Virus record (IMG/VR): IMGVR_UViG_2930248008_000005 | Span: 31,390-95,389 of that record | DNA: 64,000 nucleotides | From: a virus | Lineage: Duplodnaviria > Caudoviricetes | Direction: 5' to 3' (one strand) | Shown: positions 11,377 through 33,206 of the stretch, in pieces | Layout of the letters: the number at the start of each line of letters is the position of its first letter | Position numbering within the stretch: position 1 is the first letter of the stretch | Made by a program: the position numbers and the translations under genes | Notes under the pieces: generated by a model | Database searches by the model: none | The model's input: the letters and a program-made list of their open reading frames with translations, nothing else | Told to the model about the DNA's origin: nothing

Positions 11377-11754
11377 ATGCGCGCTGACATCCTCAAGCCG
11401 GGCCTGGTAATCGACGGCGTCCGGATTCGGTCCCGGGTTCCGTTCGTGCAGAACCGGGCCAAGATGATCCGCGTGGTCATGGAAGACAGGACCACGCGCA
11501 CCTTTCTGGCCTCCGCCGAAGTGACGGTCGGTGGGCCGCGTCAGGAGTGGTTCCCGGCCGGTCCGGTCCGGGAGAAGGATCACCGCAGCCCGCAGCCGAA
11601 CCGGAAGCCTCGCGCGTCCGACGGCCGGTGGGAGGGCGAGTCGGGCGGGTTCCACGTGACCATGGTCAGCCGGATCTCCGCGTACGACCTGACCGGGCGG
11701 CAGCTTGCCCGGTCCGCGCAGGGTCCGTCCGGTCGCCGCTACAGCAGGCGCTGA
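11377..11754 (+). CDS. Hypothetical protein, first gene of the array
   Basis: AAGGGG RBS; stop is part of a type A repeat. Confidence 0.7.
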   Translation: MRADILKPGLVIDGVRIRSRVPFVQNRAKMIRVVMEDRTTRTFLASAEVTVGGPRQEWFPAGPVREKDHRSPQPNRKPRASDGRWEGESGGFHVTMVSRISAYDLTGRQLARSAQGPSGRRYSRR

Positions 11755-11841
11755 CCCTCCGTGCACCCCTGATGGTGTGCCGGCCCGCTCGCGGTCCGGT
11801 CGCCGTCACCTGCTGCACGGCAGGAGAATCGAGGGATCATC

Positions 11842-12234
11842 ATGCGCGGAATCGGTCAGCACATGCTTCCGGCGGCGACTCAGCCGGAGCCGGCCGACAA
11901 CACGAGCATGTACGTCTACGCCCAGGTGGAGGAGTGGCAGCGGAGCTGCCTGCCCGTACACCCGGAGATCGCCCGCGAGATCGCGGCGTGGTGGCACGCC
12001 CCCGCGCCGCACTACGCCGGCCTGACGGCGTTCGCCAGCACCGGGACCCTACTCCAGCGCGAGTGGGAGCCGGAGGACGAGCCGACCCGGGTCGAGCGCG
12101 AGCGGCCCGTGATCCTGGACGAGATCGACCGGGAGATCGGGACGGAGGACATGTACCGGCCGGAGATCACGCCGCTGTGGGCGCTGCGCCACTACGTGCA
12201 GAACGCCTGCCGCGCCGCCGGGTGGGCGTACTGA
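11842..12234 (+). CDS. Hypothetical cassette protein
   Basis: Bounded by type A repeats. Confidence 0.75.
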   Translation: MRGIGQHMLPAATQPEPADNTSMYVYAQVEEWQRSCLPVHPEIAREIAAWWHAPAPHYAGLTAFASTGTLLQREWEPEDEPTRVERERPVILDEIDREIGTEDMYRPEITPLWALRHYVQNACRAAGWAY

Positions 12235-12341
12235 CCGTGTGCTGACGGTGGGGCACCGTGCCCCGGTCGCGAACGATGCGGCCGGCCGGACCGGTGCCAC
12301 CGCCACCTGCCGCACGGGCAGGAGACTGGCGAGGTGAAAAC

Positions 12342-12710
12342 ATGGGCGCTCGGACCATCACCGAGGAGACCATCGGCGGCCTGTTCAACGAGGGCAAGCT
12401 GACCCCCCTGGAGTTCGGCCTGCGGTGGGTGGAGGTGCGCCAGTACGGCGACTGCCACCCGTCGGAACTGACCCCCTGCAAGCACGACGACGAGACCAAC
12501 ACGGTCACCGTGTCGGTCTACCACGTCTACGGGGAGCAGCGGCTCGGCCAGCCCTGGTCGGAGTACACCTGCCCGAACGTCTGGGCTACGGGTGGCGACG
12601 TCGAGGGCATCGGCGGCGAGTACGTGAACGGTGGCACGTTCAGCTACCTGGGCGACGACCGGGAGCTGTGCGACCGGATCTACCGGCGGGCGGCCGAGGT
12701 CGCGGACTGA
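12342..12710 (+). CDS. Hypothetical cassette protein
   Basis: Bounded by type A repeats; GAGGTG RBS. Confidence 0.75.
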   Translation: MGARTITEETIGGLFNEGKLTPLEFGLRWVEVRQYGDCHPSELTPCKHDDETNTVTVSVYHVYGEQRLGQPWSEYTCPNVWATGGDVEGIGGEYVNGGTFSYLGDDRELCDRIYRRAAEVAD

Positions 12711-12789
12711 CCGTGCGAGTGATGGTGGGAGCCGGGCGCGCCCCGGCTCTCCGCCACCGTCGCATGGCGGAGAAAGCGAGGGACGAGTC

Positions 12790-13158
12790 ATGTCCGTCAC
12801 GATCAACCTGTCCGACATCCTCTGCGTCACCTGCGGGCAGTCGCCAGAGGAGGGCGCGCCGCGCAAGATTGGCGAGTGGGACGATGCCGGGCACACCGAC
12901 AGCGCCCACCACCCGGCCTGGTCCCAGCGGTCGTTCCCGGGCAGCATCTGGGCCGCGCACCCGCAGCAGGCGCTGTGGTACGGGGAGGTCGTCGTGGCCA
13001 AGCCGGGCGAGGACACCGACTACTTCTACGGCTACGCGGACTGCGAGTACGAGCCGTCCGTGGACGAGCTGGTGCCAGCCGGGTGGGAGGTCCTGGAGTC
13101 CAAGGTCAAGCCCACCCCGAATAACCCGGCCTGGGAGCCGGAGCCGGAGCAGGACTGA
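12790..13158 (+). CDS. Hypothetical cassette protein
   Basis: Bounded by type A repeats. Confidence 0.75.
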   Translation: MSVTINLSDILCVTCGQSPEEGAPRKIGEWDDAGHTDSAHHPAWSQRSFPGSIWAAHPQQALWYGEVVVAKPGEDTDYFYGYADCEYEPSVDELVPAGWEVLESKVKPTPNNPAWEPEPEQD

Positions 13159-13237
13159 CCGTGCATCGATGGTGGGGCACCGACTGCGCGTCGGTGCCGC
13201 CGCCACCCGTGCATGGCGGGAGGAAGTGAGGGCAATC

Positions 13238-13420
13238 ATGCCCGACGGCAACCTGTACGACGCGCTGAAGGCCATCGAGCGGTGCGACCCGGACGGCGGG
13301 GAGCGTCAGCCCACCGAGGCGGACTATGTCGCACACGAGCGGTGGGCCGTCCAGACGTTCGGGCAGAGCGTCTGGGACACGTACCGGCGGGGCGGCTGGG
13401 GCGAACCCAGCTACGCCTGA
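13238..13420 (+). CDS. Small hypothetical cassette protein
   Basis: Bounded by type A repeats. Confidence 0.7.
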   Translation: MPDGNLYDALKAIERCDPDGGERQPTEADYVAHERWAVQTFGQSVWDTYRRGGWGEPSYA

Positions 13421-13498
13421 CCGTGCGGGTGATGGTGCGGCATCGGGTGTGCCCGGTGCCGTGCCACCGTCGCATGGCGGAGAGACGAGGTGGAGACC

Positions 13499-14068
13499 AT
13501 GGGTGGCAAGCTGCACGAGAACCCGCACGTCGAGCGGGTGCTGGTCGCGCTGGACACGGCGCGCCGGGAGGCGAACCTGGCGGGTCATCCGTACGACATC
13601 GGGTTCACTGGTGTGGACGAGCCGTACGGGATGATCGAGCGGGCGCTGAAGCGCACGCTGACCCACGCCTTCCCGGACGTGGACGCGGACGCGGTCTACC
13701 ACGCGCTGATCGACTCCGGCGAGGACATCGGGTACTGCGTGGACGCGCTGCGCCGGGAGAAGGCGGACCGGGCCAAGCTGCTCGACCCCTACCGGGAGTA
13801 CGAGCGGCCGGCGGAGTCCGGGCGCTACGGCGCGCGGATGTGGGAGCTGCCGAACGGGTGGGGCGTGTCCCTGGTGCCGTACGCCCGTCACGACGAGGAA
13901 GCGGAGCGGCACGCCATCGCGCGGGAGGACTTCGGGATGGCGATCGGGGCGTTCGTAGGCGGCGGGTTCGTGATCGACAACGAGCGGTCGGCGACCATCG
14001 CGCGGGTGGGCGGCCTGGACTTCGTCGAGACCATCCTGTCCGACACGATGGAGCTGCCGCCGCGCTGA
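13499..14068 (+). CDS. Hypothetical cassette protein
   Basis: Bounded by type A repeats. Confidence 0.75.
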   Translation: MGGKLHENPHVERVLVALDTARREANLAGHPYDIGFTGVDEPYGMIERALKRTLTHAFPDVDADAVYHALIDSGEDIGYCVDALRREKADRAKLLDPYREYERPAESGRYGARMWELPNGWGVSLVPYARHDEEAERHAIAREDFGMAIGAFVGGGFVIDNERSATIARVGGLDFVETILSDTMELPPR

Positions 14069-14147
14069 CCGCGTGTGGATGGTGCTGGCCGGGCGAGAGT
14101 CCGGCCGGTGCCACCTGCCGCGCGGGCAGGAGATTGGCGAGGTTGAC

Positions 14148-14573
14148 ATGACCACGACGACGGCCGTCAGGCACTGGCACGTGGCAACGGGCCTGGTGGG
14201 CTACGGCCCGGACGGGGCGGACGGGTACGGCACGGCGATCGAGCTGACCGACGTGGCGGACCTGATCCGCGACGAGCTGCGGCAGGCTGCCGACTCCGAG
14301 GACGAGGGGTCCCGGAGCGAGGCCGAAGCCGCGGACTTCTCGGAGGCGTGGAAGCTCAAGACGCGCGCCGAGCACCTGTCGATCCTGGCGGAGACGTTCA
14401 GCAACGACCGGGCCAACGCGCCGCTGTACGCCGGAAAGCCGGAGATGTGGGCGGACACGATCGAGACACTGATCCGGCAGCACTTCCCGCTGGACATCAG
14501 CGACCGCTCCCGGTTGTACGTGTGGCCGTGTGCGGAGCCGGGCTGCGAGCACCTGGCCGACCTGGAGCGGTGA
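14148..14573 (+). CDS. Hypothetical cassette protein
   Basis: Bounded by type A repeats. Confidence 0.75.
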   Translation: MTTTTAVRHWHVATGLVGYGPDGADGYGTAIELTDVADLIRDELRQAADSEDEGSRSEAEAADFSEAWKLKTRAEHLSILAETFSNDRANAPLYAGKPEMWADTIETLIRQHFPLDISDRSRLYVWPCAEPGCEHLADLER

Positions 14574-14663
14574 CCTTCGGCGTGCGCTGACGGTGCCGGC
14601 CGGACCGACGCGGTCCGGCCGGTCGCCGCCCGCTACACGGCGGGAGATTGACGAGGTCACCCG

Positions 14664-15044
14664 GTGAACATCGCCGAGACGAGGGAAGAGATCCGCGCGC
14701 AGGTCGCGGAGCACCTGACCATGTGGGCGGGCAAGTGCATGTCGATCGAGGTCGGGGGGCTGTCCCTCGAACTCGCGCCGAGGGTTGGCGGACACATCGA
14801 GATCAGCCGCTTCGTGGTGCCGCGCGCCATGCGCGGCGAGGGGGTCGGCACGGCCGTCATGTGGTCCGTGGCGGCCTGGGCGGACCGGATGGGGTACACC
14901 CTGACCCTGACGCCGTCGAAGGGCTTCGGCGCGACCTCCGTGGCGCGCCTGGAGAAGTTCTACGGGCGGCACGGGTTCATCAGGAACCGGGGCCGGTACG
15001 CGGATCTCACGATCAGTGAGGCCATGCGCCGCGTGCCGCGCTGA
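14664..15044 (+). CDS. GNAT-family acetyltransferase
   Basis: VVPRAMRGEGVGT acetyl-CoA motif and LEKFYGRHGF. Confidence 0.85.
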   Translation: MNIAETREEIRAQVAEHLTMWAGKCMSIEVGGLSLELAPRVGGHIEISRFVVPRAMRGEGVGTAVMWSVAAWADRMGYTLTLTPSKGFGATSVARLEKFYGRHGFIRNRGRYADLTISEAMRRVPR

Positions 15045-15123
15045 CCGTGCGCACCTGGTGCGGGCCGGGCGGAAGTCCGGCCCGTGCCACCTGCCGCGCG
15101 GCAGGAGATTGGCGAAGATCATC

Positions 15124-15489
15124 ATGTGTGAGCAGGACATCGTCGACGCCTTCAACAAGGTCGCGGACAATTACCCAGGCGGGGAGCTGTACCGGCGGCT
15201 GACCGAGGCGTCGCGCAGGGCCGTGCTGGAGGGCATGGCCACCGGCTTGACGCTGGACGACTACCGGAAGGCGAAGGAGGGGCGCGGCGACCTCCGGGAG
15301 TACGCCGACGTGGTTGGCATCTACGTCCGGGACGAGCTGCGCGAGTACATCGACGAGGTGCTGCCAGCCAACGCGCTGCGGGACATCCTGTTGAAGCTGC
15401 TCGACCTGGATGACCGGAGCGTGTCGCTGGCGCTCGGGCAGCACTACCTGCCGGACCCCGACGACATCGACGCCGGGGCGCTGGTCTGA
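15124..15489 (+). CDS. Hypothetical cassette protein
   Basis: Bounded by type A repeats. Confidence 0.7.
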   Translation: MCEQDIVDAFNKVADNYPGGELYRRLTEASRRAVLEGMATGLTLDDYRKAKEGRGDLREYADVVGIYVRDELREYIDEVLPANALRDILLKLLDLDDRSVSLALGQHYLPDPDDIDAGALV

Positions 15490-15570
15490 CCGTGCGCACC
15501 TGGCGCGGGCCGGGCTATCGTCCGGCCCGTCGCCACCTGCCGCGCGGGCAGGGATTGACGAGGGAGGGCC

Positions 15571-15702
15571 ATGTTTCCAGGAGCGTATGCCTCGGTGGAA
15601 CGCAACGAGGCTGGGGAGCCGATCGGGTGGGACTACCCGTCCTACGACGAGCCATACGACCCGGACGACTACCTACCGCAGGACGACGAGGACGAGGACT
15701 GA
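15571..15702 (+). CDS. 43-aa acidic microprotein
   Basis: MFPGAYASVERNEAGEPIGWDYPSYDEPYDPDDYLPQDDEDED; exactly fills the gap between two repeats; GGAGG RBS. Confidence 0.7.
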   Translation: MFPGAYASVERNEAGEPIGWDYPSYDEPYDPDDYLPQDDEDED

Positions 15703-15779
15703 CCGTGCGCCGATGATCCTGGCCGGGCTGCTGTCCGGCCGGGGTCACCGCTGCATGGCGGAGAGAGTGAGGAACGGAC

Positions 15780-16346
15780 ATGCACATCACGTCGCGTGAC
15801 TTGACGAACCTGATCGAGGACGTGAGCCGTGGGAAGCTGACGCCGGCCGAGGGGCATCGGGGGTCGAGCTGGGCGTACCGCGAGGTGATCGACCTGGCGA
15901 ACTCGGTCCTGACGGGCGCGCCGATCGGTGCGGTCGTCATCGACTACGAGCGACGGCACCTGATCGACGGGCGCGAGCGACTGATGACGCTCGCCGCCAT
16001 GTTCCTGCCGGCCGACGAGCGCCCGGCAATGCCCGTGGACGGCAGCGCGCCGCACCTGGTGGTGCGCGGGCTCGCCGAGGGTGACGGGTTCGAGGTGCTC
16101 ATGGTGCGGGAGGAAGACCGGGAGCCGGCCGACCTGCCGCTATCCTGCCTGCTGCGCACGAGGCGGTTCCTCGCGTGGGAGCGGGCCGTAGACGGCGCGC
16201 ACCCCGAGCAGGCGACAGGCATCAAGCGGCGCGGCGGGCGGCTCGCGCAGCGCCTGCACACGGCCAAGGTGGCCGTGATCGAGCTGGACGCCGAGGTGAG
16301 CCCGGACCGGGTCGCGCGGTTGGTGAACCGGCACCGGATCGGCTGA
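15780..16346 (+). CDS. DUF262 (GmrS/ParB-like) domain protein, divergent
   Basis: HR..SW...IDLANSVLTGAPIG...LIDGRERLMTL resembles the DUF262 QR..W / PIG / DGQQRL motifs. Confidence 0.65.
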   Translation: MHITSRDLTNLIEDVSRGKLTPAEGHRGSSWAYREVIDLANSVLTGAPIGAVVIDYERRHLIDGRERLMTLAAMFLPADERPAMPVDGSAPHLVVRGLAEGDGFEVLMVREEDREPADLPLSCLLRTRRFLAWERAVDGAHPEQATGIKRRGGRLAQRLHTAKVAVIELDAEVSPDRVARLVNRHRIG

Positions 16347-16423
16347 CCGTGCGCTGATGGTGCTCGCCCGGCTTCGGCCGGGCGGGTGCCACCGCCGCAC
16401 GGCGGAGGAAGTGAGGCGCTGAG

Positions 16424-16780
16424 ATGGCGCGGATTACCGACGAGATGGTCAGCGAGATGAACGACCGGATCGCGCAGGCCCCGACGACCGCGCAGGCGTT
16501 CCGGCTTGCGATGGGCGTCAGCGACAGGATGCTGTGGCTGCTGCTCGACCTGAACCACATCAACCAGGACGAGGTCGGGTTGGGCAGGGGTGGGCGCGAG
16601 GCACTCGCGGTGGAGGCGCACGGCTGGCACCTGTACTACCGGGACGACGACACGCCGGCTGACGGGTACGGTCCGTGCGAGCTGGGCGGGTTCGAGGCGC
16701 ACAGCCTGCGGCCGTGGGAGTGCCGGGGATGCAAGCGGCGCCCCATTGACCACCGGCGGGTGCCGGTGGCCGTGCGCTGA
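16424..16780 (+). CDS. Hypothetical cassette protein
   Basis: Bounded by repeats; stops at the internal TGA of the repeat. Confidence 0.7.
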   Translation: MARITDEMVSEMNDRIAQAPTTAQAFRLAMGVSDRMLWLLLDLNHINQDEVGLGRGGREALAVEAHGWHLYYRDDDTPADGYGPCELGGFEAHSLRPWECRGCKRRPIDHRRVPVAVR

Positions 16781-16846
16781 TGATCCTGGCCGGGCGCGAG
16801 TCCGGCCGGGGTCACCGCTGCATGGCGGAGGAAGTGAGGGCTGACC

Positions 16847-17137
16847 ATGCGGTACGTGATGGTGACCGCCACCGCTCTGGCAGCGATGCTGCCGGAGCAA
16901 TACGAGCAGTGCAAGAACGACGATCGGTGGACCCTGGTCACCTCGACCGAGGAGACGTGCGCCACGGTCGGGCGCCGCGAGAAGGTGACGCACGTGGTCA
17001 CCTGGGGTCCGCCGGACGGCAGGACCAGAGAGGGGTGCTGCGACGAGTGCGCCGGGTCCTACTCCCGACGGCCAGCGCTGGCCGCGCAGGTGCTCTGCAT
17101 CTGGGCGGGCTGGGGCTGCACGCACGCGCAGCTCTAA
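16847..17137 (+). CDS. Cys-rich hypothetical cassette protein
   Basis: Bounded by repeats. Confidence 0.7.
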   Translation: MRYVMVTATALAAMLPEQYEQCKNDDRWTLVTSTEETCATVGRREKVTHVVTWGPPDGRTREGCCDECAGSYSRRPALAAQVLCIWAGWGCTHAQL

Positions 17138-17216
17138 CCGTGTGCTGATAGTGGCGGCCGGGCCGAGGGTCCGGCCGCTGCCACCACCGCACGGGTGGAG
17201 AGAGGCAGGGCGGATC

Positions 17217-17813
17217 ATGCCGCGCACCATCACGACCACGCGCACCGTGTTCAAGTTCGAGGAGTTGAGCGAGGACGCGCAGCAGCGGGCGGTTGAGCGG
17301 ATCGCCGAGAAGATGGCGACGACCTGGTGGGACCAGCACGACAACGACGACATCGGCGCGACCATCGTCTACAAGATGGCCGAGAAGCTGCGCACGCGGG
17401 GCTGGGACACCTTCGGGGAGGGAGACTTCCCCGGAATCCCCGGGGTCGAGCTGGTCGAGTGGGACCTGGGGCGCGGGCAGGCGGTCAGCTTCAAGGGAGC
17501 GCTGGACCGTGAGAACGCCCCCGCGCTGCCCTGGGCCGATGGAGTCGAGGCCGTAACCCTCGGCGGCATCCCGGGCTACGGCATCGGCCAGTCCGTCTAC
17601 GTCGAGACAGACGGCGAGGCCGAGACCGACGAGGAGGTGGCGCGGGTCGGCGCGGCGGCGGAGGCGATGAAGAGCGCCGTCGAGGATGCCATCCACGCCG
17701 CCTGGCAGGCAGGCAAGGAGCAGGAGGAGTGGAAGGGCGGCGAGGAGCGCGCCCGCGACTGGATCGAGGCGAACGAGCCCGAGTTCGACGAGTCAGGCAA
17801 CCTCGACCACTGA
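17217..17813 (+). CDS. Conserved phage hypothetical protein
   Basis: TVFKFEELSEDAQQRA ... IEANEPEFDESG, a common phage early-protein pattern. Confidence 0.75.
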   Translation: MPRTITTTRTVFKFEELSEDAQQRAVERIAEKMATTWWDQHDNDDIGATIVYKMAEKLRTRGWDTFGEGDFPGIPGVELVEWDLGRGQAVSFKGALDRENAPALPWADGVEAVTLGGIPGYGIGQSVYVETDGEAETDEEVARVGAAAEAMKSAVEDAIHAAWQAGKEQEEWKGGEERARDWIEANEPEFDESGNLDH

Positions 17814-17893
17814 CCGTGCGCTGACGGTGGCCGCCGGGCCGATGGTCCGGCGGCTGCCACCTCCGCACGGGAGGGGAAAGCAGGGGTAGGCAC

Positions 17894-24856: not shown

Positions 24857-24859
24857 GCG

Positions 24860-26603: not shown

Positions 26604-26684
26604 TCGTGCGGGTGATGGTGGTGCGCCGGGCTGCGGCTCGGCGCGCTCGCCACCGTGGCACGACGGAGGAATGGAGGGCGGAGC

Positions 26685-26921: not shown

Positions 26922-27002
26922 CCGTGTGCTGACGGTGCGGCATCGGGCGAAGGTCCGGTGCGGCGCCGCCCGCCGCACGGACGGGAGGAAGCGAGGAGTC
27001 TG

Positions 27003-27470
27003 ATGGAGATGTACACGGTCGTCGGGGTGTGGCTGAACAATGCGCCGCTCGCGGTCGCCTCGCTGGGCCGCCCGACCCGCACCGACTGGGCCGGCGGCCT
27101 GACCGATGCCTTCCCCAGTGAGTTTCCGCAGGGATCGTGGGTGGAGCTGGTCCTTGCCGACTCGCACGATGCGGCGCAGCGGCGGGCCGAGGAGCTGATG
27201 CGGGCGAACGACGAGAGCGGCGACGACGGCCAGGAGGGCGACGCGGGCGACGACGAGGGTGACGAGGACGGCCACTCCGCTGGCGACGGCTGCGGCATCT
27301 ACGACACGGGCTATTGGGTCGAGACCGATGACGGCGGCTGTGCGGTCGAGGACCTGGAGGTGGGCGACGTCTTCGAGGACCGCGCTTACCCGGGTGACCG
27401 CTGGATCGCCAGCGAGGTCGTGGTCGTGGGCGACGACGTGCACGTTGACGTCGAGCGAGCCGACGACTGA
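27003..27470 (+). CDS. Acidic hypothetical cassette protein
   Basis: Bounded by repeats. Confidence 0.7.
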   Translation: MEMYTVVGVWLNNAPLAVASLGRPTRTDWAGGLTDAFPSEFPQGSWVELVLADSHDAAQRRAEELMRANDESGDDGQEGDAGDDEGDEDGHSAGDGCGIYDTGYWVETDDGGCAVEDLEVGDVFEDRAYPGDRWIASEVVVVGDDVHVDVERADD

Positions 27471-27557
27471 TCCACCGCGCGCTGACGGTGACGGCCGGGC
27501 TACGAGCCCGGCCGGTCGCCGCCCGCCGCGCGGCGGGAGAAGGTGAGGATGGGATCG

Positions 27558-27941
27558 ATGGCGGTTCCGAGTGCGGATGAGCTGGACCGGATGTCGGACG
27601 ACGAGCTGTTGGCGGCATTGAGGGCCTACCAGGACGCATACGACCGGCGGACGGAGAGCAAGTTGCTGCGGGTCGTCACAGAACAACTGGCGGCCTCCGG
27701 CGAGCTGGAGGCCGACGAGGAGCCGATCAAGGTCCTGTTCGACCCCTACAACTACCCCAACGGCTGGTACTACAAGGAGCGCAGCGCCCGGGTCTACCTC
27801 AAGGGCGATGAGGAGCCGTTCCTGTTCGACTTCGAGGGCGATGAGGTCAGCGGCCTGCTCGGCACGCTGAGCTACGAGGCCGGGGAGAAAACGGAATTGG
27901 TCGTCAACCTGGTTGACGGCACGGTCGACCACCTGGGATGA
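27558..27941 (+). CDS. Hypothetical cassette protein
   Basis: Bounded by repeats. Confidence 0.7.
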   Translation: MAVPSADELDRMSDDELLAALRAYQDAYDRRTESKLLRVVTEQLAASGELEADEEPIKVLFDPYNYPNGWYYKERSARVYLKGDEEPFLFDFEGDEVSGLLGTLSYEAGEKTELVVNLVDGTVDHLG

Positions 27942-28022
27942 CCGCGCACTGACGGTGGCCGCCGGGCTTCGGGTCCGGCGGCTCGCCGCCTGCCGCGCGG
28001 CAGGAGAAAGGAGCGCCGAAGG

Positions 28023-28256
28023 ATGGCGCAGGCAAGCACGATCGAGTACGCGATCAGCCGGGACGGCGGCGAGACCTTCACGGTCCTGGAAGCGGGGGTG
28101 CCGTCGGAGCGGTTCACTCCGATCGTCGAACGGATCACCACGAACCGGAACACCCAGCCCGAGCTGAACAACGACGCCCTGCTGATCCGCGACCTCGACT
28201 CTCGGACCGTCTGGCGCCTGCGGGCCGAGGGAGCCGCACTGCCCGCCGCTTCGTGA
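28023..28256 (+). CDS. Hypothetical cassette protein
   Basis: Bounded by repeats. Confidence 0.7.
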   Translation: MAQASTIEYAISRDGGETFTVLEAGVPSERFTPIVERITTNRNTQPELNNDALLIRDLDSRTVWRLRAEGAALPAAS

Positions 28257-28321
28257 TGGTGGGGCACCGGCCGCCGCCGGTGCCCTCGCCACCTCCGAGC
28301 GGAGGAGAGAGTGAGGACGAC

Positions 28322-28729
28322 ATGGGAGCCTTGTCCGACCTGGAGATCGTCCTGCGGGGCCTGCGGTGCCTCCAGCCGGAAGAACTGGCCGACCTGGCCC
28401 CGATGGCCGGCACGGGTCGCCCGAGCGGGCCGGAGACGCCCGGGGCGCACTACCTGGCGAGCCTGCGCGACGTGCTGGCCGACAAGATCGAGAGAGACGG
28501 CGGTGCGCCGGATCCCGAGCTGGTGCCGGCGACGGTCAGCGTCTGGGACGTGGTTCCGGATGGGCGCACCGCCTGGGACACCTTCCTCGACCTGGAGGCG
28601 TTCCACACCGACCACGCGCGCAAGCACCACCTGACGACAGACGGCGTGCGCATCGTGCTCGAACTGATCGGGTGCGACTTCTGGCGGGAACTGCTCACCG
28701 CCCACGTGCCGGAGCGGTTCTACCTCTGA
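28322..28729 (+). CDS. Hypothetical protein, paralog of 22990-23382
   Basis: Type A repeat upstream, first type B repeat downstream. Confidence 0.7.
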   Translation: MGALSDLEIVLRGLRCLQPEELADLAPMAGTGRPSGPETPGAHYLASLRDVLADKIERDGGAPDPELVPATVSVWDVVPDGRTAWDTFLDLEAFHTDHARKHHLTTDGVRIVLELIGCDFWRELLTAHVPERFYL

Positions 28730-28799
28730 CCTGACCGCTTCCGCCGCGCCTCGAACTGCCGGGGCGCGTGCGGTGGCCGCCAGGGCCAAGATGGAGGAG

Positions 28800-29105
28800 A
28801 TGAACGTGAAGCTGACGTTCGAGTGGGACGTGGCAGAACAGCACAAGCTGGAGATCGAGCTGGACGACCTGTTCGACTGGCTGGTCCGGGAGGGCGTGCT
28901 CGACAAGAACGACCCGCGAACCCTGGAGACGCTCCAGGAGGTCTACAACGACACATGCGAAATCGAGAAGTTGCTGTGGATCTCGCAGGGCAAGGACACC
29001 GTCGTCCGTCGCGGCGTGAGAGGACTGACCTCCCACCCGTTCGAGACGCCGGAGCCCCGGGCGGAGCACCCGCACGACCACGGCGACTACAGCGACGTGC
29101 AGTGA
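28800..29105 (+). CDS. Hypothetical cassette protein
   Basis: Bounded by type B repeats. Confidence 0.7.
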   Translation: MNVKLTFEWDVAEQHKLEIELDDLFDWLVREGVLDKNDPRTLETLQEVYNDTCEIEKLLWISQGKDTVVRRGVRGLTSHPFETPEPRAEHPHDHGDYSDVQ

Positions 29106-29179
29106 TCGCCTGACCGCTTCCGTCCGGCCCGCCTGACGCGGGCCGGGCAGTGGCCGCCAGGCCAGGACGAGGAGGAGAG

Positions 29180-29356
29180 ATGGACGAGCAGCAGCCGGAG
29201 GAGCCCGCCAAGCTGGACCACCAGCAGCTCATGAACATGCTGCGTGACAAGGCCGCAGAGCACGGCTGGTCGGTCGACTGGAGCTTCAAGGGCGACCAGT
29301 ACGGCAACGGCGACCAGGAATACCAGGTCTGGTTCACGCCGACGAGCAGCACCTGA
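29180..29356 (+). CDS. Small hypothetical cassette protein
   Basis: Bounded by type B repeats. Confidence 0.7.
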   Translation: MDEQQPEEPAKLDHQQLMNMLRDKAAEHGWSVDWSFKGDQYGNGDQEYQVWFTPTSST

Positions 29357-29431
29357 CCGCTTCCGCCGCGCCCCGGGAACCGTGCGCCCCGGGGCGTGCG
29401 CGGTGGCCGCCAGGGCCAAGATGGAGGAGAA

Positions 29432-29752
29432 GTGGATCCGAAGACGAACGGCTCGACCGTGCGGCAGTTTCTCGACCTGTCGACGAGCCACCTGCCCGAG
29501 AAGGTCTGCGACGGTCTCGGCGGCTACCCCGGCGTGACGGCGTACGAGCACACGGCGTACGGCTGGTTCGTGTGGGCGCCGAGTGACCCGAACCTCGACA
29601 TCTACGAGAAGGTGCCCGAGGAAATCAAGGCGATCTGGCGGCATGCGCGCAAGCTCGGCTGCGAGTACGTGCTGCTGGAGCGGGACGCTGATGACGACCC
29701 CAACCTGCCGACGTGGAACTGGAGTACGGGCGAGCGCCACGACCCTGCCTGA
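29432..29752 (+). CDS. DUF5983-like protein
   Basis: FLDLSTSHL..YGWFVW..PE.I..I...AR..GCEYVLLERD. Confidence 0.6.
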   Translation: MDPKTNGSTVRQFLDLSTSHLPEKVCDGLGGYPGVTAYEHTAYGWFVWAPSDPNLDIYEKVPEEIKAIWRHARKLGCEYVLLERDADDDPNLPTWNWSTGERHDPA

Positions 29753-29824
29753 CCGCTTCCGTCCGGCCCGCCCTTCGGGGCGGGCCGCGGCGGTGGCCGC
29801 CAGGGCCAGGACGGAGGCAGCGAG

Positions 29825-30151
29825 ATGGAACGCGAGCCGCGACGGTGGCGAATGTACGCGGGAAGACTGAAGAGCCCGGTTGAGGGCCGGGAGTTCATGA
29901 ACTTCGGTGACCCGTGGTACGTGCGGGCGTACGGCCGAGAGCCGGTGCCCGTCGAGCTGACCGAGGACCCCGAGGGCACCTACTGGGGGTGGATCGACGC
30001 ACCGGGTCACCCGCAGGCCGATGGCATGCCGGAGATGGTCCAGCCGCACTACGGCATGTTCACGATGCAGTTCCCCTACGGCCCCGAGGCCGAGCAGGAG
30101 CGAGGGAAGGGCGAGATCGTGCGCATGTCGGTGCGCGAGGTGTCGGAATGA
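29825..30151 (+). CDS. Hypothetical protein
   Basis: Follows a type B repeat. Confidence 0.7.
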   Translation: MEREPRRWRMYAGRLKSPVEGREFMNFGDPWYVRAYGREPVPVELTEDPEGTYWGWIDAPGHPQADGMPEMVQPHYGMFTMQFPYGPEAEQERGKGEIVRMSVREVSE

Positions 30152-30582
30152 CGCGCGAGGCGGTGCGGGAGATGCTACGCAACAACCCGCGCCGCTTCGG
30201 TTACGCACTGCGCAGGGCGCTCTGGACCCACGAGGCGATGGCGTTGCTACCCGGCCCGTACGGCTGGAATGACGGCGGCTGCCTGCTGCTGGCCGAAGGG
30301 CTGGTTGAGCTGCTGGGGCGAGAGGCGCGCGTCAGGGCGGTCGTCCGGGGCGGCACGCTGTACGCCCAGCACTTCGTGGTGCAGGAGGGGCGCTGGCACC
30401 TGGACGCGGACGGGGCATGCCTGGAGGGCACCCTGCTGCGGCGCTGGGAAGAGCAGGAGTTGGTGCCGTCACCTCGGACGGCGCCGTTGCGCGCCGTCGA
30501 CATCAGCGCAGGCACCCCTCGTAGCGCTGAGGTGTCCGCCTCCGTGCGGGACTTCCTCTGTGCGCGCCTGCCTTCGGCCTGA
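30148..30582 (+). CDS. Putative papain/transglutaminase-like Cys-His-Asp protein
   Basis: GGCLLLAEGL ... QHFVV ... LDADG; ATGA overlap. Confidence 0.5.
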   Translation: MTREAVREMLRNNPRRFGYALRRALWTHEAMALLPGPYGWNDGGCLLLAEGLVELLGREARVRAVVRGGTLYAQHFVVQEGRWHLDADGACLEGTLLRRWEEQELVPSPRTAPLRAVDISAGTPRSAEVSASVRDFLCARLPSA

Positions 30583-30653
30583 CCGCTTCGGTCGGACTCG
30601 GGGCGACCCGAGTCCGGCTGTGGCCGCCAGGGCCAGGAAAGTGAGGCGAGGTA

Positions 30654-31043
30654 ATGAAGGGCGACAGCAGCCGGTGCGACCTGCCGGTAGGAACCTTCGT
30701 GGAGGTGACCGAGTACGGGGACGGCCAGCGGTACATCGCCGTGATCGTTGGCTACGACCTGGGGCGCAGCAAGTACGAGGTGGGGCACCGATACGCAGGC
30801 TGGGGCGAGTGGAGGTGGCTCGACGGTGGCGCCTGGGTCTTCCCGGGCGAGGTCGAGGAGATCAAAACCAAGGAGGTCAGCTTCGAGTCTGAAAACGTCG
30901 ACGAGAAGCCGGGCGTCGTCACCTACACCATCCCCGCCTGAGTGACGGTGAGGTGCGAGCCCGACGCGAGCGACGTGGCACTGCGCACCCGATGGGTGCT
31001 CGACGAGGGAACGACGTGGGACTCCTTCGACCACAACACCTGA
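30654..31043 (+). pseudogene. Cassette ORF interrupted by an in-frame TGA at 30939-30941
   Basis: Frame stays open for 33 more codons to the repeat-embedded TGA at 31041. Confidence 0.5.
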
Positions 31044-31117
31044 CCGCTTCGGGCGGACTCGGGGCGCACCCCCGAGCCCGCCAGTGGCCGCCAGGGCCGA
31101 GAGGGAGGACGCGAGCG

Positions 31118-32023
31118 ATGACGGAGGACAAGCGGCCCGTAACTGCCGATAGCACCCCGGCCGAGATTGACCAACGGCTGCTGGGGCTGGCGTGGGACAA
31201 GGCTCACCACCAGGCGATCCTGGGCGGCCGGAACGTCAGCGAGGAGCAGCGGGCAGCTGCGGAAGAGGCGTTGGCGCGGATCGCCGACGAGGAGAATCCG
31301 CTGGAGGCGGCATATGAGCGCCGGCGGTGGACTCGGTGGTGGTGGGTGCCGAACGGGCACCTACACCGGGAGGGTGAGTGCTCGACGCTGTTCGAGAGCA
31401 CCGAGCGGAACCTGACCCCGCGGGCTAGCGGACTGAGCGACGAGGAGTTGGTCGGCAAGTTCGGGTGGCACGTCTGCACCGCCTGCTACCCCGACGCCCC
31501 GAAGGACCCCAACTTCCGCACCCCGGGCACGTACGCGGCCGAGCAGGCAGCCGCCGACGGGTGGTGCCTGAACAAGGTGCCGGCGAGGATGAGCCGCAGA
31601 TGGCACGGCTACGGCAGTTGCGGGGAGTGTGACGCGGGCGGGGTGCCGGTGTCCAGCCGGGGCAACCTGCGCAAGCACAAGCACCAGCGGATGGCCGATG
31701 ACGCCGCCCGCGAGGCGCGGATCAACGACCCGAAGCTGATTGGCGCCGCCACTGGCGAGCCGCTGAAGGTGGACGGCTCGGAGATCAGAACCCGCCGCAC
31801 GGCCGAGATCGAGTGGGTGCGGCACATGGAGAACGGCGATGAGCGCGGTTGGGCCAGTAACCGCGCTTGGCAGGCCGAGCAGCGAGAGTTCGCTCGACAG
31901 ATCGCGGAGGCGCTGGCCGCCAAGGACGGGGTGAGCGTCGAGGAGATCGAGGCTCGACTCCAGCCGAAGCTGGAAGCCAAGATCCGCAAGTTCGAGCGCG
32001 ACCGGGAAACGGCCGGACGCTGA
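31118..32023 (+). CDS. Conserved actinophage hypothetical Zn-binding protein
   Basis: NGHLH...CSTL...LSGL...C..CYPDAP motif. Confidence 0.75.
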   Translation: MTEDKRPVTADSTPAEIDQRLLGLAWDKAHHQAILGGRNVSEEQRAAAEEALARIADEENPLEAAYERRRWTRWWWVPNGHLHREGECSTLFESTERNLTPRASGLSDEELVGKFGWHVCTACYPDAPKDPNFRTPGTYAAEQAAADGWCLNKVPARMSRRWHGYGSCGECDAGGVPVSSRGNLRKHKHQRMADDAAREARINDPKLIGAATGEPLKVDGSEIRTRRTAEIEWVRHMENGDERGWASNRAWQAEQREFARQIAEALAAKDGVSVEEIEARLQPKLEAKIRKFERDRETAGR

Positions 32024-32102
32024 CCGTACGGGTGATGGTGTGGCATCGGGCGCGAGCCCGGTGCCGCGCCACCTCCGTGCGGAGGAGAGAGTGAGGTCAG
32101 GG

Positions 32103-32627
32103 ATGACCTACGCGGTGATTGAGCGACTCCCGGATGGTCGGGAGTGCATCCTGGGCGTCGGCTTCACGGACGCGCCGGGATACCCCGACGACAGTCAGCT
32201 GTGGGCGCCGAAGCGGTGGGCGGTGCTGCTGACGCACGAGGACGTCCTGGTCGACGGGGTCTGGCGGGAGGTGGCACCGGCCGAGCCGACGGACCATGGC
32301 GTGGTGGGCGGCGACGGGCAGCTCAGTACGGCCTGGGGCCGGAGGTTCGCCCGCCGAATGCCCGACGGGTTGTGGGCGGTGATCGACCACTTCTTCTACG
32401 TCGAGACCGACGTGATGCACGAGAGCGGCGAGCGGTGGCTGACCGAGGGGATCTGGCGCACCGCCTGCCGGGACCTGCGCGACGTGGGTGGCACCGAGGA
32501 GTGGGCCGACACCCCCGAGTACAAGGGCCTGGACACGGTCGGCGAGGTCACCGACCGGGACGCCTACGGCCGGTGCGACCTGCTGACCGGCGAGTACGAC
32601 TGGAACGGGGAGAGCCTCGTCCGCTGA
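32103..32627 (+). CDS. Hypothetical cassette protein
   Basis: Bounded by type A repeats. Confidence 0.7.
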   Translation: MTYAVIERLPDGRECILGVGFTDAPGYPDDSQLWAPKRWAVLLTHEDVLVDGVWREVAPAEPTDHGVVGGDGQLSTAWGRRFARRMPDGLWAVIDHFFYVETDVMHESGERWLTEGIWRTACRDLRDVGGTEEWADTPEYKGLDTVGEVTDRDAYGRCDLLTGEYDWNGESLVR

Positions 32628-32700
32628 TGGTGGGGCATCCGTCCGGTGCCGGATGCCCTCGCCACCTCCGGACGGAGGAGAAAGGGCGCAGGTGAGCGCC

Positions 32701-33141
32701 ATGAACCGAGCCGCAATCCTCGAACTGGAAGAACTGGCAGCCCAGCCGCCGCGCCTGCCGAGCCGGTACGACGCGACGGACCACTGCCGAGAGTGCCGGT
32801 CGCTGGTCGGGACGCCGGACATGGCCAGGTGCGCGCTGGCGGTCTTGGCGGACCGGCAGGAGGCGGGCCGGCTCGTGCTGGCCGCCGAGACCATCGCGCA
32901 GTTGGCGGAGGTGCCCCGCTCGCCGTGGCGGGTAGTCGCGGCCATGCTGCGGCCGTGGAAGTCGTCGCGCCTGTTCTACCCGATGGTCCTCACCGGCAAG
33001 CCGGGGGTCTACGCGCTGAGCGGCGGCGGGGCGCGGAACTCGGCAGAGCAGGCCGAGGAGCACCTCGGCTCGATCCTCGGCGGCTACCGGGAGGGTTGGG
33101 TGGCGACGTACGCCGGGGCGTACCAGGTGTTCAGCCGCTGA
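32701..33141 (+). CDS. Hypothetical cassette protein
   Basis: Bounded by type A repeats. Confidence 0.7.
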   Translation: MNRAAILELEELAAQPPRLPSRYDATDHCRECRSLVGTPDMARCALAVLADRQEAGRLVLAAETIAQLAEVPRSPWRVVAAMLRPWKSSRLFYPMVLTGKPGVYALSGGGARNSAEQAEEHLGSILGGYREGWVATYAGAYQVFSR

Positions 33142-33206
33142 CCGCGAGGGATGACGGTGCGGGCCGGGCGCATGTCCGGCCGGCGCCGCCGGCCGCGGGG
33201 TCGGAG

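What the first reader, a model, noticed from the sequence alone, without database searches (positions are those of the whole stretch)
11751..33206. Type A repeat shows covariation and two mutually exclusive folds (switch or pseudoknot RNA)
Seen: the 5' hexamer after the stop co-varies with the 3' hexamer: CCGTGC/GCACGG (16343), CCACGC/GCGTGG (18546, 22307), CGCTCG/CGAGCG (23379, 24294), CGTCCG/CGGACG (32618), CCGCGC/GCGCGG (27467, 27939). The same 3' segment also sits in a second co-varying hairpin next to GGAG: CCTGCC..GGCAGG, CCGCC..GGCGG, CCACC..GGTGG, CCTCC..GGAGG, CCGTC..GACGG. Central hairpins show mostly plus-strand G-U wobbles and UUCG/GNRA loops (cUUCGg at ~16371 and ~24329; GAGA at ~14095). 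This favours function as RNA rather than as a bottom-strand attC. Inference: a translational-coupling switch, an RNase processing site or a self-cleaving ribozyme candidate.
Basis: partly seen in the sequence, partly recalled or inferred. Interest (0 to 1): 0.85.

Follow-up and report, generated by a model that had tools for sequence, protein, structure and literature searches.

The report
Two-state RNA junctions between phage genes
An integrated phage of a high-GC actinobacterium separates 39 of its small early genes with the same ~85-base RNA signal that can fold in two mutually exclusive ways; it most likely marks where the long early message is cut and its pieces capped, but no cutting has been shown.

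Summary
A covariance model finds 39 type A copies on the + strand, 11755-33225. Each lies between the stop codon of one small gene and the start of the next.

Three helices carry compensatory changes:
- an outer helix P1, next to the stop codon;
- a central hairpin P2/P3 of 14±1 bp;
- a small 3' hairpin that reuses the 3' strand of P1, so the two cannot coexist.

G-U pairs outnumber A-C mismatches 88:16, which places the fold on the mRNA-sense strand. The same element, with different cargo genes, occurs in two other uncultured phage lineages. It has no Rfam match and no match in deposited phage genomes.

The array lies downstream of tandem promoters and a mimic of the rRNA leader box.

Best reading (about 0.45): punctuation of a long polycistronic mRNA. 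The long fold is cut by a host structure-specific nuclease, probably RNase III, and the freed 3' strand refolds into a 5'-terminal cap hairpin. A ribosome-driven switch, a protein site and a DNA recombination site remain rivals. A pseudoknot and a general UUCG/GNRA loop rule are not supported.

Earlier notes of this scan describe similar junctions on other DNA. I did not check them.

The parts
11755..33225 (+). Array of 39 type A junction elements between small early genes
   Evidence: R1 cmsearch, 39 hits at E<=2.8e-8, all on +
11755..11845 (+). type A copy
   Evidence: R1 48.9 bits
12231..12343 (+). type A copy with an enlarged central hairpin
   Evidence: R1 45.0 bits; fold
12707..12792 (+). 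type A copy
   Evidence: R1 76.5 bits
13155..13241 (+). type A copy
   Evidence: R1 65.2 bits
13417..13502 (+). type A copy
   Evidence: R1 63.8 bits
14065..14150 (+). type A copy (GAGA loop)
   Evidence: R1 67.6 bits
14576..14665 (+). type A copy
   Evidence: R1 61.2 bits
15041..15126 (+). type A copy (variant octamer)
   Evidence: R1 69.4 bits
15486..15572 (+). type A copy (variant octamer)
   Evidence: R1 69.0 bits
15699..15783 (+). type A copy
   Evidence: R1 71.1 bits
16343..16427 (+). type A reference copy
   Evidence: R1 79.9 bits; MFE -50.5 kcal/mol, z -6.16
16344..16346 (+). reference copy: stop codon TGA of the upstream gene, inside the outer helix
16347..16353 (+). reference copy: P1 5' strand (CCGTGCG)
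16354..16357 (+). reference copy: 5' side of the internal loop (CTGA)
16358..16391 (+). reference copy: P2/P3 central hairpin, with the invariant U.G pair and a TTCG loop
16392..16405 (+). reference copy: alternative 3' hairpin CCGCC-GCAC-GGCGG; it overlaps the 3' side of the internal loop and the P1 3' strand (16396-16402)
16413..16426 (+). reference copy: Shine-Dalgarno GAGG, 7-nt spacer and ATG of the next gene
16766..16850 (+). type A copy; the stop codon is the TGA of the internal loop
   Evidence: R1 68.0 bits
17134..17219 (+). type A copy (TAA stop)
   Evidence: R1 71.6 bits
17810..17895 (+). type A copy
   Evidence: R1 75.1 bits
18220..18305 (+). type A copy
   Evidence: R1 71.1 bits
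18546..18633 (+). type A copy
   Evidence: R1 59.9 bits
19341..19427 (+). type A copy
   Evidence: R1 80.4 bits
19678..19762 (+). type A copy
   Evidence: R1 64.1 bits
20174..20261 (+). type A copy
   Evidence: R1 74.8 bits
20555..20642 (+). type A copy
   Evidence: R1 73.8 bits
20829..20914 (+). type A copy
   Evidence: R1 47.0 bits
21385..21469 (+). type A copy
   Evidence: R1 73.8 bits
21936..22022 (+). type A copy
   Evidence: R1 68.0 bits
22303..22386 (+). type A copy; the stop codon is the TGA of the internal loop
   Evidence: R1 68.8 bits
22906..22992 (+). type A copy
   Evidence: R1 66.6 bits
23386..23472 (+). type A copy with a fully different P1 (CGCTCG/CGAGCG) and a 13-nt loop in the 3' hairpin
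   Evidence: R1 58.1 bits
23933..24019 (+). type A copy
   Evidence: R1 67.9 bits
24299..24386 (+). type A copy (TTCG loop)
   Evidence: R1 67.0 bits
25198..25282 (+). type A copy
   Evidence: R1 71.3 bits
25598..25681 (+). type A copy
   Evidence: R1 69.8 bits
26109..26194 (+). type A copy
   Evidence: R1 67.8 bits
26600..26688 (+). type A copy
   Evidence: R1 64.9 bits
26918..27005 (+). type A copy
   Evidence: R1 70.3 bits
27471..27558 (+). type A copy
   Evidence: R1 73.6 bits
27938..28025 (+). type A copy
   Evidence: R1 78.4 bits
28242..28327 (+). type A copy; the stop codon is the TGA of the internal loop
   Evidence: R1 58.6 bits
32020..32107 (+). type A copy
   Evidence: R1 64.6 bits
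32613..32700 (+). type A copy (CGTCCG/CGGACG); the stop codon is the TGA of the internal loop
   Evidence: R1 58.3 bits
33138..33225 (+). type A copy, the last of the array
   Evidence: R1 49.5 bits
28727..31117 (+). Block of type B junction elements: different sequence, same layout (stop in the outer helix, variable hairpin, competing 3' hairpin TGGCC-GCCAG-GGCCA, SD, start)
36024..42310 (+). Further type B elements in the next gene block
10031..10440 (+). Four tandem TTGACA promoter-like units followed by a 12-mer that is identical to a box upstream of Streptomyces 16S rRNA; this heads the array
34640..34810 (+). End of the first gene block: hairpin with a T-run, a conserved AT-rich 21-mer, then a type B-like copy with no upstream ORF (TGG in place of TGA) ahead of the DUF932 gene

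Best explanation
Type A is a cis-acting RNA element on the phage's long early polycistronic mRNA. It acts as a punctuation mark at gene junctions.

Shown:
- It folds on the mRNA-sense strand into one long imperfect hairpin. The parts are an outer helix P0/P1 that contains or abuts the upstream stop codon, a 4/4 or 4/5 internal loop, and a 14±1 bp hairpin P2/P3 with an invariant U.G pair.
- Alternatively it folds into P2/P3 plus a small 3' hairpin that begins at the first base of the 3' side of the internal loop.
- The two folds compete for the same nucleotides, and both are kept by compensatory change.

Inferred mechanism:
1. The long fold is the substrate of a host structure-specific endoribonuclease, most likely RNase III. 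The phage encodes no RNase III of its own.
2. Cleavage at the internal loop separates the cistrons.
3. The upstream mRNA keeps P2/P3 as a protective 3' hairpin.
4. The P1 3' strand, now without its partner, snaps into the 3' hairpin. This puts a stem-loop at the very 5' end of the downstream mRNA, just ahead of its Shine-Dalgarno and start codon.

A leader that mimics the rRNA antitermination box would let RNA polymerase read through some 45 such hairpins.
For: Structure and strand:
- Covariation of P1, P2/P3 and the 3' hairpin.
- The same structure in 54 distinct copies from other phage lineages: 94.7% paired, all 7 P1 pairs with changes on both sides, 0 of 500 shuffles.
- GU/UG against AC/CA is 88:16 here and 105:16 in the relatives.
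- The U.G pair in P2 is present in 38 of 39 copies here and 51 of 54 in the relatives.

Fold energies:
- The long hairpin is the MFE in most copies, at -37.5 to -58.9 kcal/mol.
- z-scores are -2.3 to -6.2 in the six copies tested.
- When the 5' strand is made unavailable, the 3' hairpin forms next to P2/P3 in nearly all copies.

Geometry:
- The 3' hairpin starts exactly at the CC that follows the last P2 pair in 36 of 39 copies.
- The P2/P3 stem is 13-15 bp in 35 of 39 copies, which suggests a ruler.

[quoted passage not shown] Single-strand RNase III cuts leave stabilising 3' hairpins, and T7 early mRNA has five such signals (review PMC3867540, passages read).

Not terminators:
- None of the three terminator-like sites found in 8400-28000 lies at an element.
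- The gene block ends at about 34.65 kb with a hairpin plus a T-run.

Read-through:
- Tandem promoters are followed by the 12-mer TTGAGAACTCAA.
- That 12-mer occurs 2-7 times per genome in 5 Streptomycetaceae genomes, and lies about 180 nt before 16S in L509.
- A second element-bearing lineage has the same layout.

Independence from stop-to-start coupling:
- A type B-like copy lies in a probable 5' UTR with no upstream ORF.
- A type B copy at about 42.29 kb and two type A copies in L461 have no start codon after them.
- Type B has an unrelated sequence but the same two-state layout.
Against: - No RNA data. No listed run holding this DNA is on record as RNA, so neither transcript ends nor cleavage can be seen.
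- The nuclease is a guess. The conserved GGUG...YGCC-R-CC also resembles an acceptor-stem minihelix with discriminator and CC, which would fit RNase P instead.
- The stop codon lies within 16 nt upstream of the conserved octamer, or inside it, in all 39 copies. A pure processing site does not need so tight a link, whereas a ribosome-driven switch does.
- The invariant U.G pair and the conserved loop bases could mark a protein site rather than a nuclease site.
- If Streptomyces RNase III cut mainly on the 5' side of the loop, as at rpsO-pnp, the upstream mRNA would lose its 3' hairpin.
- In the tool's six-copy sample the minus strand folded slightly better in 3 of 6.
- The host is inferred only from GC content, the terminase relatives and the rRNA-leader match.
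Confidence: 0.45

Rival explanations
1. Ribosome-actuated switch. A ribosome that terminates at the stop codon occupies the P1 5' strand. The 3' strand then flips into the 3' hairpin. This changes how the next cistron is initiated (coupling, re-initiation or hand-over of the subunit), or eases termination next to a strong hairpin.
For: The stop codon is 7-10 nt before the octamer in 30 of 39 copies, inside the octamer in 4, and 12-16 nt before it in 5. P1 therefore always lies within reach of a terminating ribosome. Blocking the 5' strand gives the 3' hairpin in nearly all copies. The start codon follows at a fixed 28-36 nt from the anchor in 36 of 39 copies, with an SD 5-8 nt upstream.
Against: The true SD (GAGG) and the start codon are unpaired, or only locally paired, in both folds, and both folds end at the same 3' base. 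The switch therefore does not gate the ribosome site in any obvious way. The GGAG next to the hairpin is not kept in the L461 lineage, where AA or AC follows in 15 of 21 copies. Some elements stand without an upstream ORF or without a downstream start.
Confidence: 0.2
2. Binding site for a phage or host RNA-binding protein, such as an antitermination, translation or decay factor. The protein would recognise the conserved internal loop and the P2 helix with its invariant U.G pair. The two folds would set whether the site is presented.
For: The most conserved bases across three lineages are unpaired loop bases and a wobble pair that is almost never replaced by a Watson-Crick pair: 38 of 39 and 51 of 54. 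The hairpin length is constrained.
Against: No candidate protein was identified. The 10 largest cargo proteins have no convincing family. Cargo differs between lineages, and I did not look for a shared partner gene.
Confidence: 0.1
3. The primary role is at the DNA level. The repeats would be portable cassette boundaries where recombination (homologous or site-specific, attC-like) swaps, deletes or inserts single genes. The RNA fold would be secondary.
For: Between lineages only the element is conserved and the cargo differs. L408 carries one extra [element + small gene] relative to its 95-98% identical relative L461, bounded by identical element cores.
Against: The only tyrosine recombinase is about 42 kb from the array, and no large serine recombinase domain (Pfam Recombinase, PF07508) was found; the resolvase catalytic-domain family was not searched. 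All copies are in one orientation at a fixed distance from the start codon. Compensatory change with a 5:1 excess of G-U over A-C fits a folded top strand, which is the mRNA, not an attC-like bottom strand. Homologous recombination needs no stem covariation.
Confidence: 0.1
4. U-less transcription terminators or attenuators that set a decreasing expression gradient along the operon.
For: Strong GC hairpins directly after stop codons. Terminators without U tails have been reported for actinophage phiC31; this is recalled, and the paper was not found in the library.
Against: No T-run after any element. About 45 in series would silence distal genes. The array is headed by an rRNA-type leader box. 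A hairpin plus T-run is used where the block ends. This reading does not explain the covarying 3' hairpin.
Confidence: 0.05
5. A new self-cleaving ribozyme.
For: Conserved unpaired bases (CUGA / CC) and an invariant wobble pair beside an internal loop.
Against: A simple two-helix architecture with no sign of tertiary contacts. No match to any ribozyme family in Rfam, even at E up to 5. The CUGAUGG string lacks the hammerhead's GAAA partner and its third stem, as read directly from the sequence.
Confidence: 0.03

Closest known systems
RNase III processing signals in phage early polycistronic mRNAs (coliphage T7; B. subtilis phage SP82)
   Same: Repeated, mutually similar hairpins with an internal loop, placed between genes of a long early transcript. 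They are expected to leave a stabilising hairpin on the product (PMC3867540, passages read; the SP82 citation seen in PMC4838370).
   Different: T7 has five sites in about 7 kb; here there are 39 plus some 20 of a second type, at nearly every junction. The stop codon is built into the helix. A second, competing hairpin covaries, and I know of no such feature described for the T7 sites (recalled). There is no sequence relation. Cleavage is untested here.
S. coelicolor rpsO-pnp intergenic hairpin, a host RNase III site
   Same: An intergenic hairpin in a high-GC actinobacterium with a [4/4] internal loop, at which RNase III cuts on both sides (PMC10126417, passage read).
   Different: It is a single host locus with a regulatory role, not a repeat family. 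I did not compare the sequences.
Start-associated sequences (SAS) and extended SAS of Cluster K mycobacteriophages and Cluster EF Microbacterium phages
   Same: A repeat in one orientation, restricted to the non-structural genes of actinophages, just upstream of start codons, with an inverted repeat upstream. The function is unknown (PMC3203893 and PMC7302621, passages read).
   Different: The SAS 13-mer is absent here: 1 match with 2 mismatches against 2.2 expected. The authors state that departures in the ESAS arms do not support RNA pairing, and they favour a DNA-binding protein. Here the arms covary strongly.
Integron attC sites
   Same: Imperfect hairpins after each cassette ORF, built as paired boxes, an unpaired spacer and a variable terminal hairpin. 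Cassette-sized indels occur at the repeat.
   Different: There is no adjacent integrase. The top strand folds, not the bottom strand. The position relative to the next start codon is fixed.

Membership tests
Phage RNase III processing signals (T7/SP82 type) | Lies between cistrons of one polycistronic transcript | tested here: inconclusive
   It lies between ORFs in all 39 copies. A single transcript is inferred from the tandem promoters, the absence of internal promoter-like sites and the absence of T-run terminators. No RNA data.
Phage RNase III processing signals (T7/SP82 type) | About two turns of double-stranded RNA interrupted by an internal loop | tested here: met
   P0/P1 of 7-10 bp, a 4/4 or 4/5 loop, and P2/P3 of 13-15 bp
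Phage RNase III processing signals (T7/SP82 type) | Cleaved by RNase III | not testable with these tools
   No listed run holding this DNA is on record as RNA.
SAS/ESAS of actinophages | Conserved 13-mer GGGATAGGAGCCC at the ribosome site | tested here: not met
   1 match with 2 mismatches, inside a hairpin, against 2.2 expected
SAS/ESAS of actinophages | One-orientation repeat upstream of start codons of non-structural genes | tested here: met
   39 of 39 on +; the start codon is 28-36 nt after the anchor in 36 of 39
Integron attC | Array adjacent to an IntI-type tyrosine recombinase and attI | tested here: not met
   The single PF00589 hit is at G000:C1:1055-1600, about 42 kb from the array
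Integron attC | The bottom strand is the folded, selected strand | tested here: not met
   GU/UG 88 against AC/CA 16 on the top strand
Intrinsic terminator | GC hairpin followed by a U-run | tested here: not met
   No element is among the terminator-like sites. The sequences after the hairpins are purine-rich.
Any Rfam family, including self-cleaving ribozymes and riboswitches | Reaches the family's gathering score | tested here: not met
   0 hits in the window. At E up to 5, only far sub-threshold microRNA-precursor and sRNA hits.
tRNA-like / RNase P substrate | tRNA or tmRNA-like fold | tested here: not met
   ARAGORN finds none. The stem mode is 14 bp, not 12. The acceptor-like GGUG...GCC-R-CC remains only a lead.

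The most novel reading that the evidence does not exclude
The element is the boundary of an 'expression-ready gene cassette' system, a functional analogue of an integron that works at two levels.

On DNA, the roughly 85-bp repeats let phages gain, lose and exchange single early genes by recombination within the repeat. On RNA, the same repeat does four things for whatever ORF lies between two copies: it ends translation, excises the cistron from an rRNA-operon-like, antiterminated super-transcript, caps both new ends by refolding, and supplies a ribosome site.

Any captured gene would thus be expressed without evolving its own signals.
Probability: 0.2. Interest if true: 0.85.

Novelty: new variant of a known kind. 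Interest (0 to 1): 0.7.

Why it matters
If the reading holds, this is an uncatalogued RNA class with unusually clean evidence for two competing folds. It is used about 40 times in one phage genome and shared by at least three uncultured phage lineages whose cargo genes differ.

It would show how a temperate actinophage expresses dozens of unrelated small early genes from one promoter cluster. The phage appears to copy the logic of an rRNA operon: tandem promoters, an antitermination leader and processing stems.

It would also give a testable model for the puzzling start-associated repeats of actinophages. In practice, it would be a compact natural insulator for building polycistronic operons in Streptomyces and other high-GC hosts.

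Tried and rejected
- Rfam: nothing at gathering scores. At E up to 5 on 16300-20300, only sub-threshold microRNA-precursor and sRNA hits.
- tRNA or tmRNA: none.
- Phage Samy (nearest terminase by DNA): its genes are tightly packed and R1 does not match.
- A 95.8-kb relative by terminase (G001) and four other relatives: no R1 match. No multi-copy junction repeat in 40 kb of G001.
- Deposited phage genomes: no match to 7.9 kb of the array. Only chance 20-37 nt matches to one copy.
- Loose DNA patterns gave only single chance matches.
Only one locus had two regex matches, and R1 did not confirm it.
- R1 on 5 Streptomycetaceae genomes found none. On 151 genomes it gave one weak hit, which is an ordinary perfect hairpin after a stop codon. 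Only 29-150 candidates per genome were scored, so this says little.
- Sequencing runs: one DNA holder, which may be the source sample. No RNA holder listed.
- Cargo proteins: the 10 largest of 39 were scanned in Pfam and PHROGs. Only weak, sub-threshold hits appeared. The other 29 were not scanned.
- MAFFT could not put the 3' hairpin in register. I therefore tested it without an alignment.
- The tally of 3' hairpins in the L466 lineage was not finished because the script stopped on an error. For that lineage I rely on the folds.
- Hammerhead: rejected on reading the sequence. There is no GAAA and no third stem.
- Promoter for a phage RNA polymerase: rejected, because the conserved 5' block covaries with a segment 50 nt downstream.
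- MITE or REP: rejected, because the copies have one orientation and a fixed distance to the start codon.
- Literature: searches found no description of this element. Supplementary files were not opened. The supplementary figures of PMC3203893 and PMC7302621, with ESAS and SAS alignments, may bear on the comparison.

Full report
CONTEXT. The window is bases 31390-95389 of a single 95,389-bp virus record that IMG/VR classes as a provirus, 93% complete. GC content is about 70%. The small and large terminase subunits and the portal lie on the minus strand at 3.1-7.4 kb. The nearest deposited phage by DNA is Streptomyces phage Samy, at 68% over part of the terminase gene. From about 10.0 kb the genes run on the + strand.

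Upstream of the array there are four tandem TTGACA units with a 91-92 bp period, then a roughly 950-nt ORF-poor leader, then a first ORF ending at 11754. After that come small ORFs, almost all without a recognisable family. The 10 largest of the 39 genes that follow a type A copy gave only sub-threshold hits.

THE REPEAT. TGATGGTG occurs 23 times against 1.14 expected. A covariance model built from 37 hand-picked copies (A1, R1) finds 39 copies on the + strand at 45-80 bits. The best minus-strand hit is 28 bits. By my reading of the junction sequences, of about 50 gene junctions between 11754 and 34392:
- 39 carry type A;
- 6 carry a second family, type B;
- 5 carry neither (24856, 30151, 33527, 34080, 34392).

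The layout of a type A copy, in order:
1. The stop codon, TGA in 38 of 39 copies. Its last base is 7-10 nt before the octamer in 30 copies. It is inside the octamer in 4 copies and 12-16 nt before it in 5.
2. The P1 5' strand.
3. CUGA.
4. YGGUG.
5. A variable GC-rich hairpin.
6. YGCCR.
7. CC-N(1-2)-C.
8. The P1 3' strand.
9. GG.
10. Usually AG.
11. A purine-rich tract with GAGG or AGGG 5-8 nt before the start codon.
The start codon lies 28-36 nt after the anchor in 36 of 39 copies.

STRUCTURE 1, THE LONG HAIRPIN. Nearly every copy folds as one long imperfect hairpin, at -37.5 to -58.9 kcal/mol. Six copies folded with the tool gave z-scores of -2.3 to -6.2. RNAalifold recovers P1 and P2.

On the model-guided alignment A3, 93.7% of cells pair (shuffles 82.8±0.9%). 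15 of 18 pairs change on both sides. All five measures are reached by 0 of 500 shuffles. Sliding the partners by 1-3 columns drops pairing to 30-48%. P1 has 6 of 7 pairs with changes on both sides. Three copies carry wholly different P1 sequences: CGCUCG/CGAGCG twice and CGUCCG/CGGACG once.

The first pair of P2 covaries as U-A 27, C-G 9, with 3 unpaired. The fourth pair is U.G in 38 of 39 copies. P2/P3 is 13-15 bp in 35 of 39 copies. Between P1 and P2 lies an internal loop of 4 nt (CUGA) against 4 or 5 nt (CC + NC or NNC).

STRUCTURE 2, THE 3' HAIRPIN. In 36 of 39 copies a hairpin of at least 5 bp starts exactly at the CC that follows the last P2 pair. There are 20 stem types, among them CCUGCC/GGCAGG, CCGCC/GGCGG, CCUCC/GGAGG, CCACC/GGUGG and CCCGUC/GACGGG. 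The loop is 4 or 5 nt in 35 of 39.

The loop and the adjoining stem bases are the P1 3' strand. The two helices therefore exclude each other, and a pseudoknot between a 4-5 nt loop and a 6-7 nt strand is not feasible.

MAFFT could not register this hairpin. I therefore used an alignment-free test that deals each copy's 3' partner to another copy:
- 3' hairpin: 5.54 against 4.44±0.12, 0 of 10000.
- P1: 6.59 against 5.63±0.14, 0 of 10000.
- Central hairpin: 11.8 against 7.6±0.3, 0 of 2000.

When the 5' strand is forbidden to pair, the 3' hairpin forms beside P2/P3 in nearly all copies. The unconstrained fold is on average 10.9 kcal/mol more stable.

WHICH STRAND. In the modelled helices, GU/UG outnumber AC/CA 88:16 here and 105:16 in the relatives. 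Without the invariant U.G the counts are 50:16 and 54:16. All wobbles in the 3' hairpin stems are G-U on the + strand. The + strand fold was the more stable in 31 of 38 copies, by a mean of 5.8 kcal/mol. In the tool's six-copy sample it was 3 of 6. The structure is therefore selected on the mRNA-sense strand.

RELATIVES. A gapped pattern that matches 13 of the 39 copies gave mostly single chance hits in IMG/VR and in genome contigs. A few viral loci carried many copies. R1 confirms them:
- L461, L497, L408 and L447 are one lineage, 95-99% identical to each other, with about 21 copies in 11 kb.
- L466 is part of a 130.8-kb contig, with about 19 copies in 9.7 kb.
- A metagenome scan adds a 141-kb contig that belongs to the first lineage by its matching R1 scores, and a 1.1-kb contig with an 80.7-bit copy.

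Between these and the window, only the elements and one 250-bp gene stretch are similar. On the 54 distinct relative copies the same structure holds:
- 94.7% paired;
- 7 of 7 P1 pairs with changes on both sides;
- U.G in 51 of 54;
- 0 of 500 shuffles.

The first lineage keeps a 3' hairpin at the same place in 19 of 21 copies, but AA or AC rather than AG follows it. The GGAG next to the hairpin is therefore not a core feature. The L466 lineage has a different competing hairpin, which uses the P1 3' strand as its 5' arm.

The element was not found in Samy, in five terminase relatives, in deposited phage genomes by blastn, or in Rfam.

A SECOND FAMILY WITH THE SAME LOGIC. Type B has about 22 real copies among 26 pattern hits. 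Its sequence is unrelated. It again places the stop codon in an outer helix (CCUGA.../...CAGG), has a variable GC hairpin, and has a small 3' hairpin (UGGCC-GCCAG-GGCCA) whose loop and 3' arm hold the outer helix's partner. Its minimum-energy folds alternate between the long form and the two-hairpin form.

Two type B copies are informative:
- One lies at about 34.72-34.80 kb. It follows a hairpin with a T-run and a conserved AT-rich 21-mer, with no ORF upstream and UGG where the others have UGA.
- One lies at about 42.25-42.31 kb. No SD or start follows it, but the second copy of that 21-mer does.

Two type A copies in L461 also lack a start codon within 48 nt. The hairpin module is therefore used without stop-to-start coupling.

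TRANSCRIPTION CONTEXT. No sigma-70-like promoter and no hairpin-plus-T-run site falls on an element in 8400-47000. The leader carries TTGAGAACTCAA. This 12-mer occurs 2-7 times in each of five Streptomycetaceae genomes, mostly at contig ends, against 0 for the reversed control. In L509 it lies about 180 nt before the 5' end of 16S rRNA.

The 141-kb relative also has four cTTGACA boxes, then a near-identical box, a leader, a first small ORF and the first element. The array thus appears to be a long operon read by an rRNA-type antiterminated polymerase. That argues against the elements being terminators.

MECHANISM. What is shown is a two-state fold on the mRNA strand, at gene junctions, conserved across lineages and mirrored by an unrelated family. 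What is inferred is the function.

I favour processing (0.45). The long fold has the form of an RNase III signal. Streptomyces RNase III is reported to cut both sides of a [4/4] internal loop in an intergenic hairpin (PMC10126417, passage read). Single-strand cuts leave stabilising 3' hairpins, and T7 early mRNA carries five such signals (PMC3867540, passages read). SP82 early mRNA is another phage case; I saw the citation only, in PMC4838370.

The competing 3' hairpin begins at the first base of the 3' side of that loop. This is where a new 5' end would lie. Refolding would then put a stem at the 5' end of the next cistron. That 5'-terminal stems protect mRNA from decay is established knowledge that I recall and did not check here. 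The phage has no RNase III gene of its own.

Against this reading:
- There are no RNA data.
- The enzyme is a guess. The acceptor-like GGUG...GCC-R-CC could point to RNase P, although ARAGORN finds nothing and the stem is 14 bp, not 12.
- The very tight link to the stop codon fits a ribosome-actuated switch better. I give that rival 0.2. In neither fold is the real SD or the start codon hidden.

A protein site (0.1), a DNA cassette boundary (0.1), U-less terminators (0.05) and a ribozyme (0.03) remain.

For the DNA reading, one fact stands. L408 has one extra [element + small gene] relative to L461, bounded by identical element cores. The repeats therefore do mediate cassette gain or loss, at least as a side effect. 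The only integrase is 42 kb away.

COMPARISON AND NOVELTY. The closest known things are the T7/SP82 RNase III signals and the start-associated repeats of actinophages. In the latter, the authors found that the inverted repeats do not covary, and they favoured DNA binding (PMC3203893, passages read; PMC7302621). The SAS 13-mer is absent here.

The new features are these:
- The element is present at nearly every junction.
- The stop codon is built into the helix.
- There are two competing helices, both with compensatory change.
- An unrelated family shows the same logic.
- The element is coupled to an rRNA-operon-like head.

Seven literature searches found no description of it.

Earlier notes of this scan describe similar two-state junctions in other uncultured phages of about 95 kb. 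These are unchecked AI notes. A look-up by sequence found no look-alike outside this genome.

I class the finding as a new variant of a known kind, with interest 0.7.

Noticed in passing
window 10031-10440; also L511 1-700: Four tandem TTGACA promoter-like units are followed by a 12-mer identical to a box about 180 nt upstream of Streptomyces 16S rRNA. A second element-bearing phage lineage has the same head. It looks like mimicry of the rRNA antitermination leader.
   Followed up: partly
window 10441-11370: A leader of about 950 nt with lower GC and no convincing ORF lies between the promoter cluster and the first small gene. Rfam gives no match. Its role is unknown.
   Followed up: no
L408 3900-4260 against L461 about 4400-4460: Two 95-98% identical phage contigs differ by exactly one [junction element + gene of about 88 aa], bounded by identical element cores. 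This is a cassette-sized indel at the repeat.
   Followed up: partly
window 34681-34701 and 42340-42360: A conserved AT-rich 21-mer (CTACCTTGGATGNATTAAATA) occurs twice, each time at the end of a gene block, against 0 expected. At 34.65 kb a hairpin with a T-run precedes it. These are probably internal promoters or operators that split the early region into operons.
   Followed up: partly
window 28727-31117, 36024-42310 and scattered to about 57.9 kb: Type B junction family, about 22 real copies among 26 pattern hits. Its sequence is unrelated to type A, but it has the same layout and the same two competing folds.
   Followed up: partly
window 45116-52642: A GntR/UTRA regulator on the minus strand and a 768-aa protein with weak FtsK/SpoIIIE and AAA matches lie inside the phage record. 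Type B-like copies are nearby at about 48.75, 50.34 and 53.28 kb. Another reader suggested a conjugation-type module.
   Followed up: no
type A octamer, e.g. window 16355-16357: By my count from the octamers listed, 28 of 39 copies carry a second stop codon (TGA or TAA) in the internal loop, in a different frame from the usual stop. In four copies this is the stop actually used. The element thus closes two of the three reading frames.
   Followed up: partly
window 34686-36026: The first gene after the block boundary encodes a DUF932 protein (Pfam E 6.7e-53).
   Followed up: no
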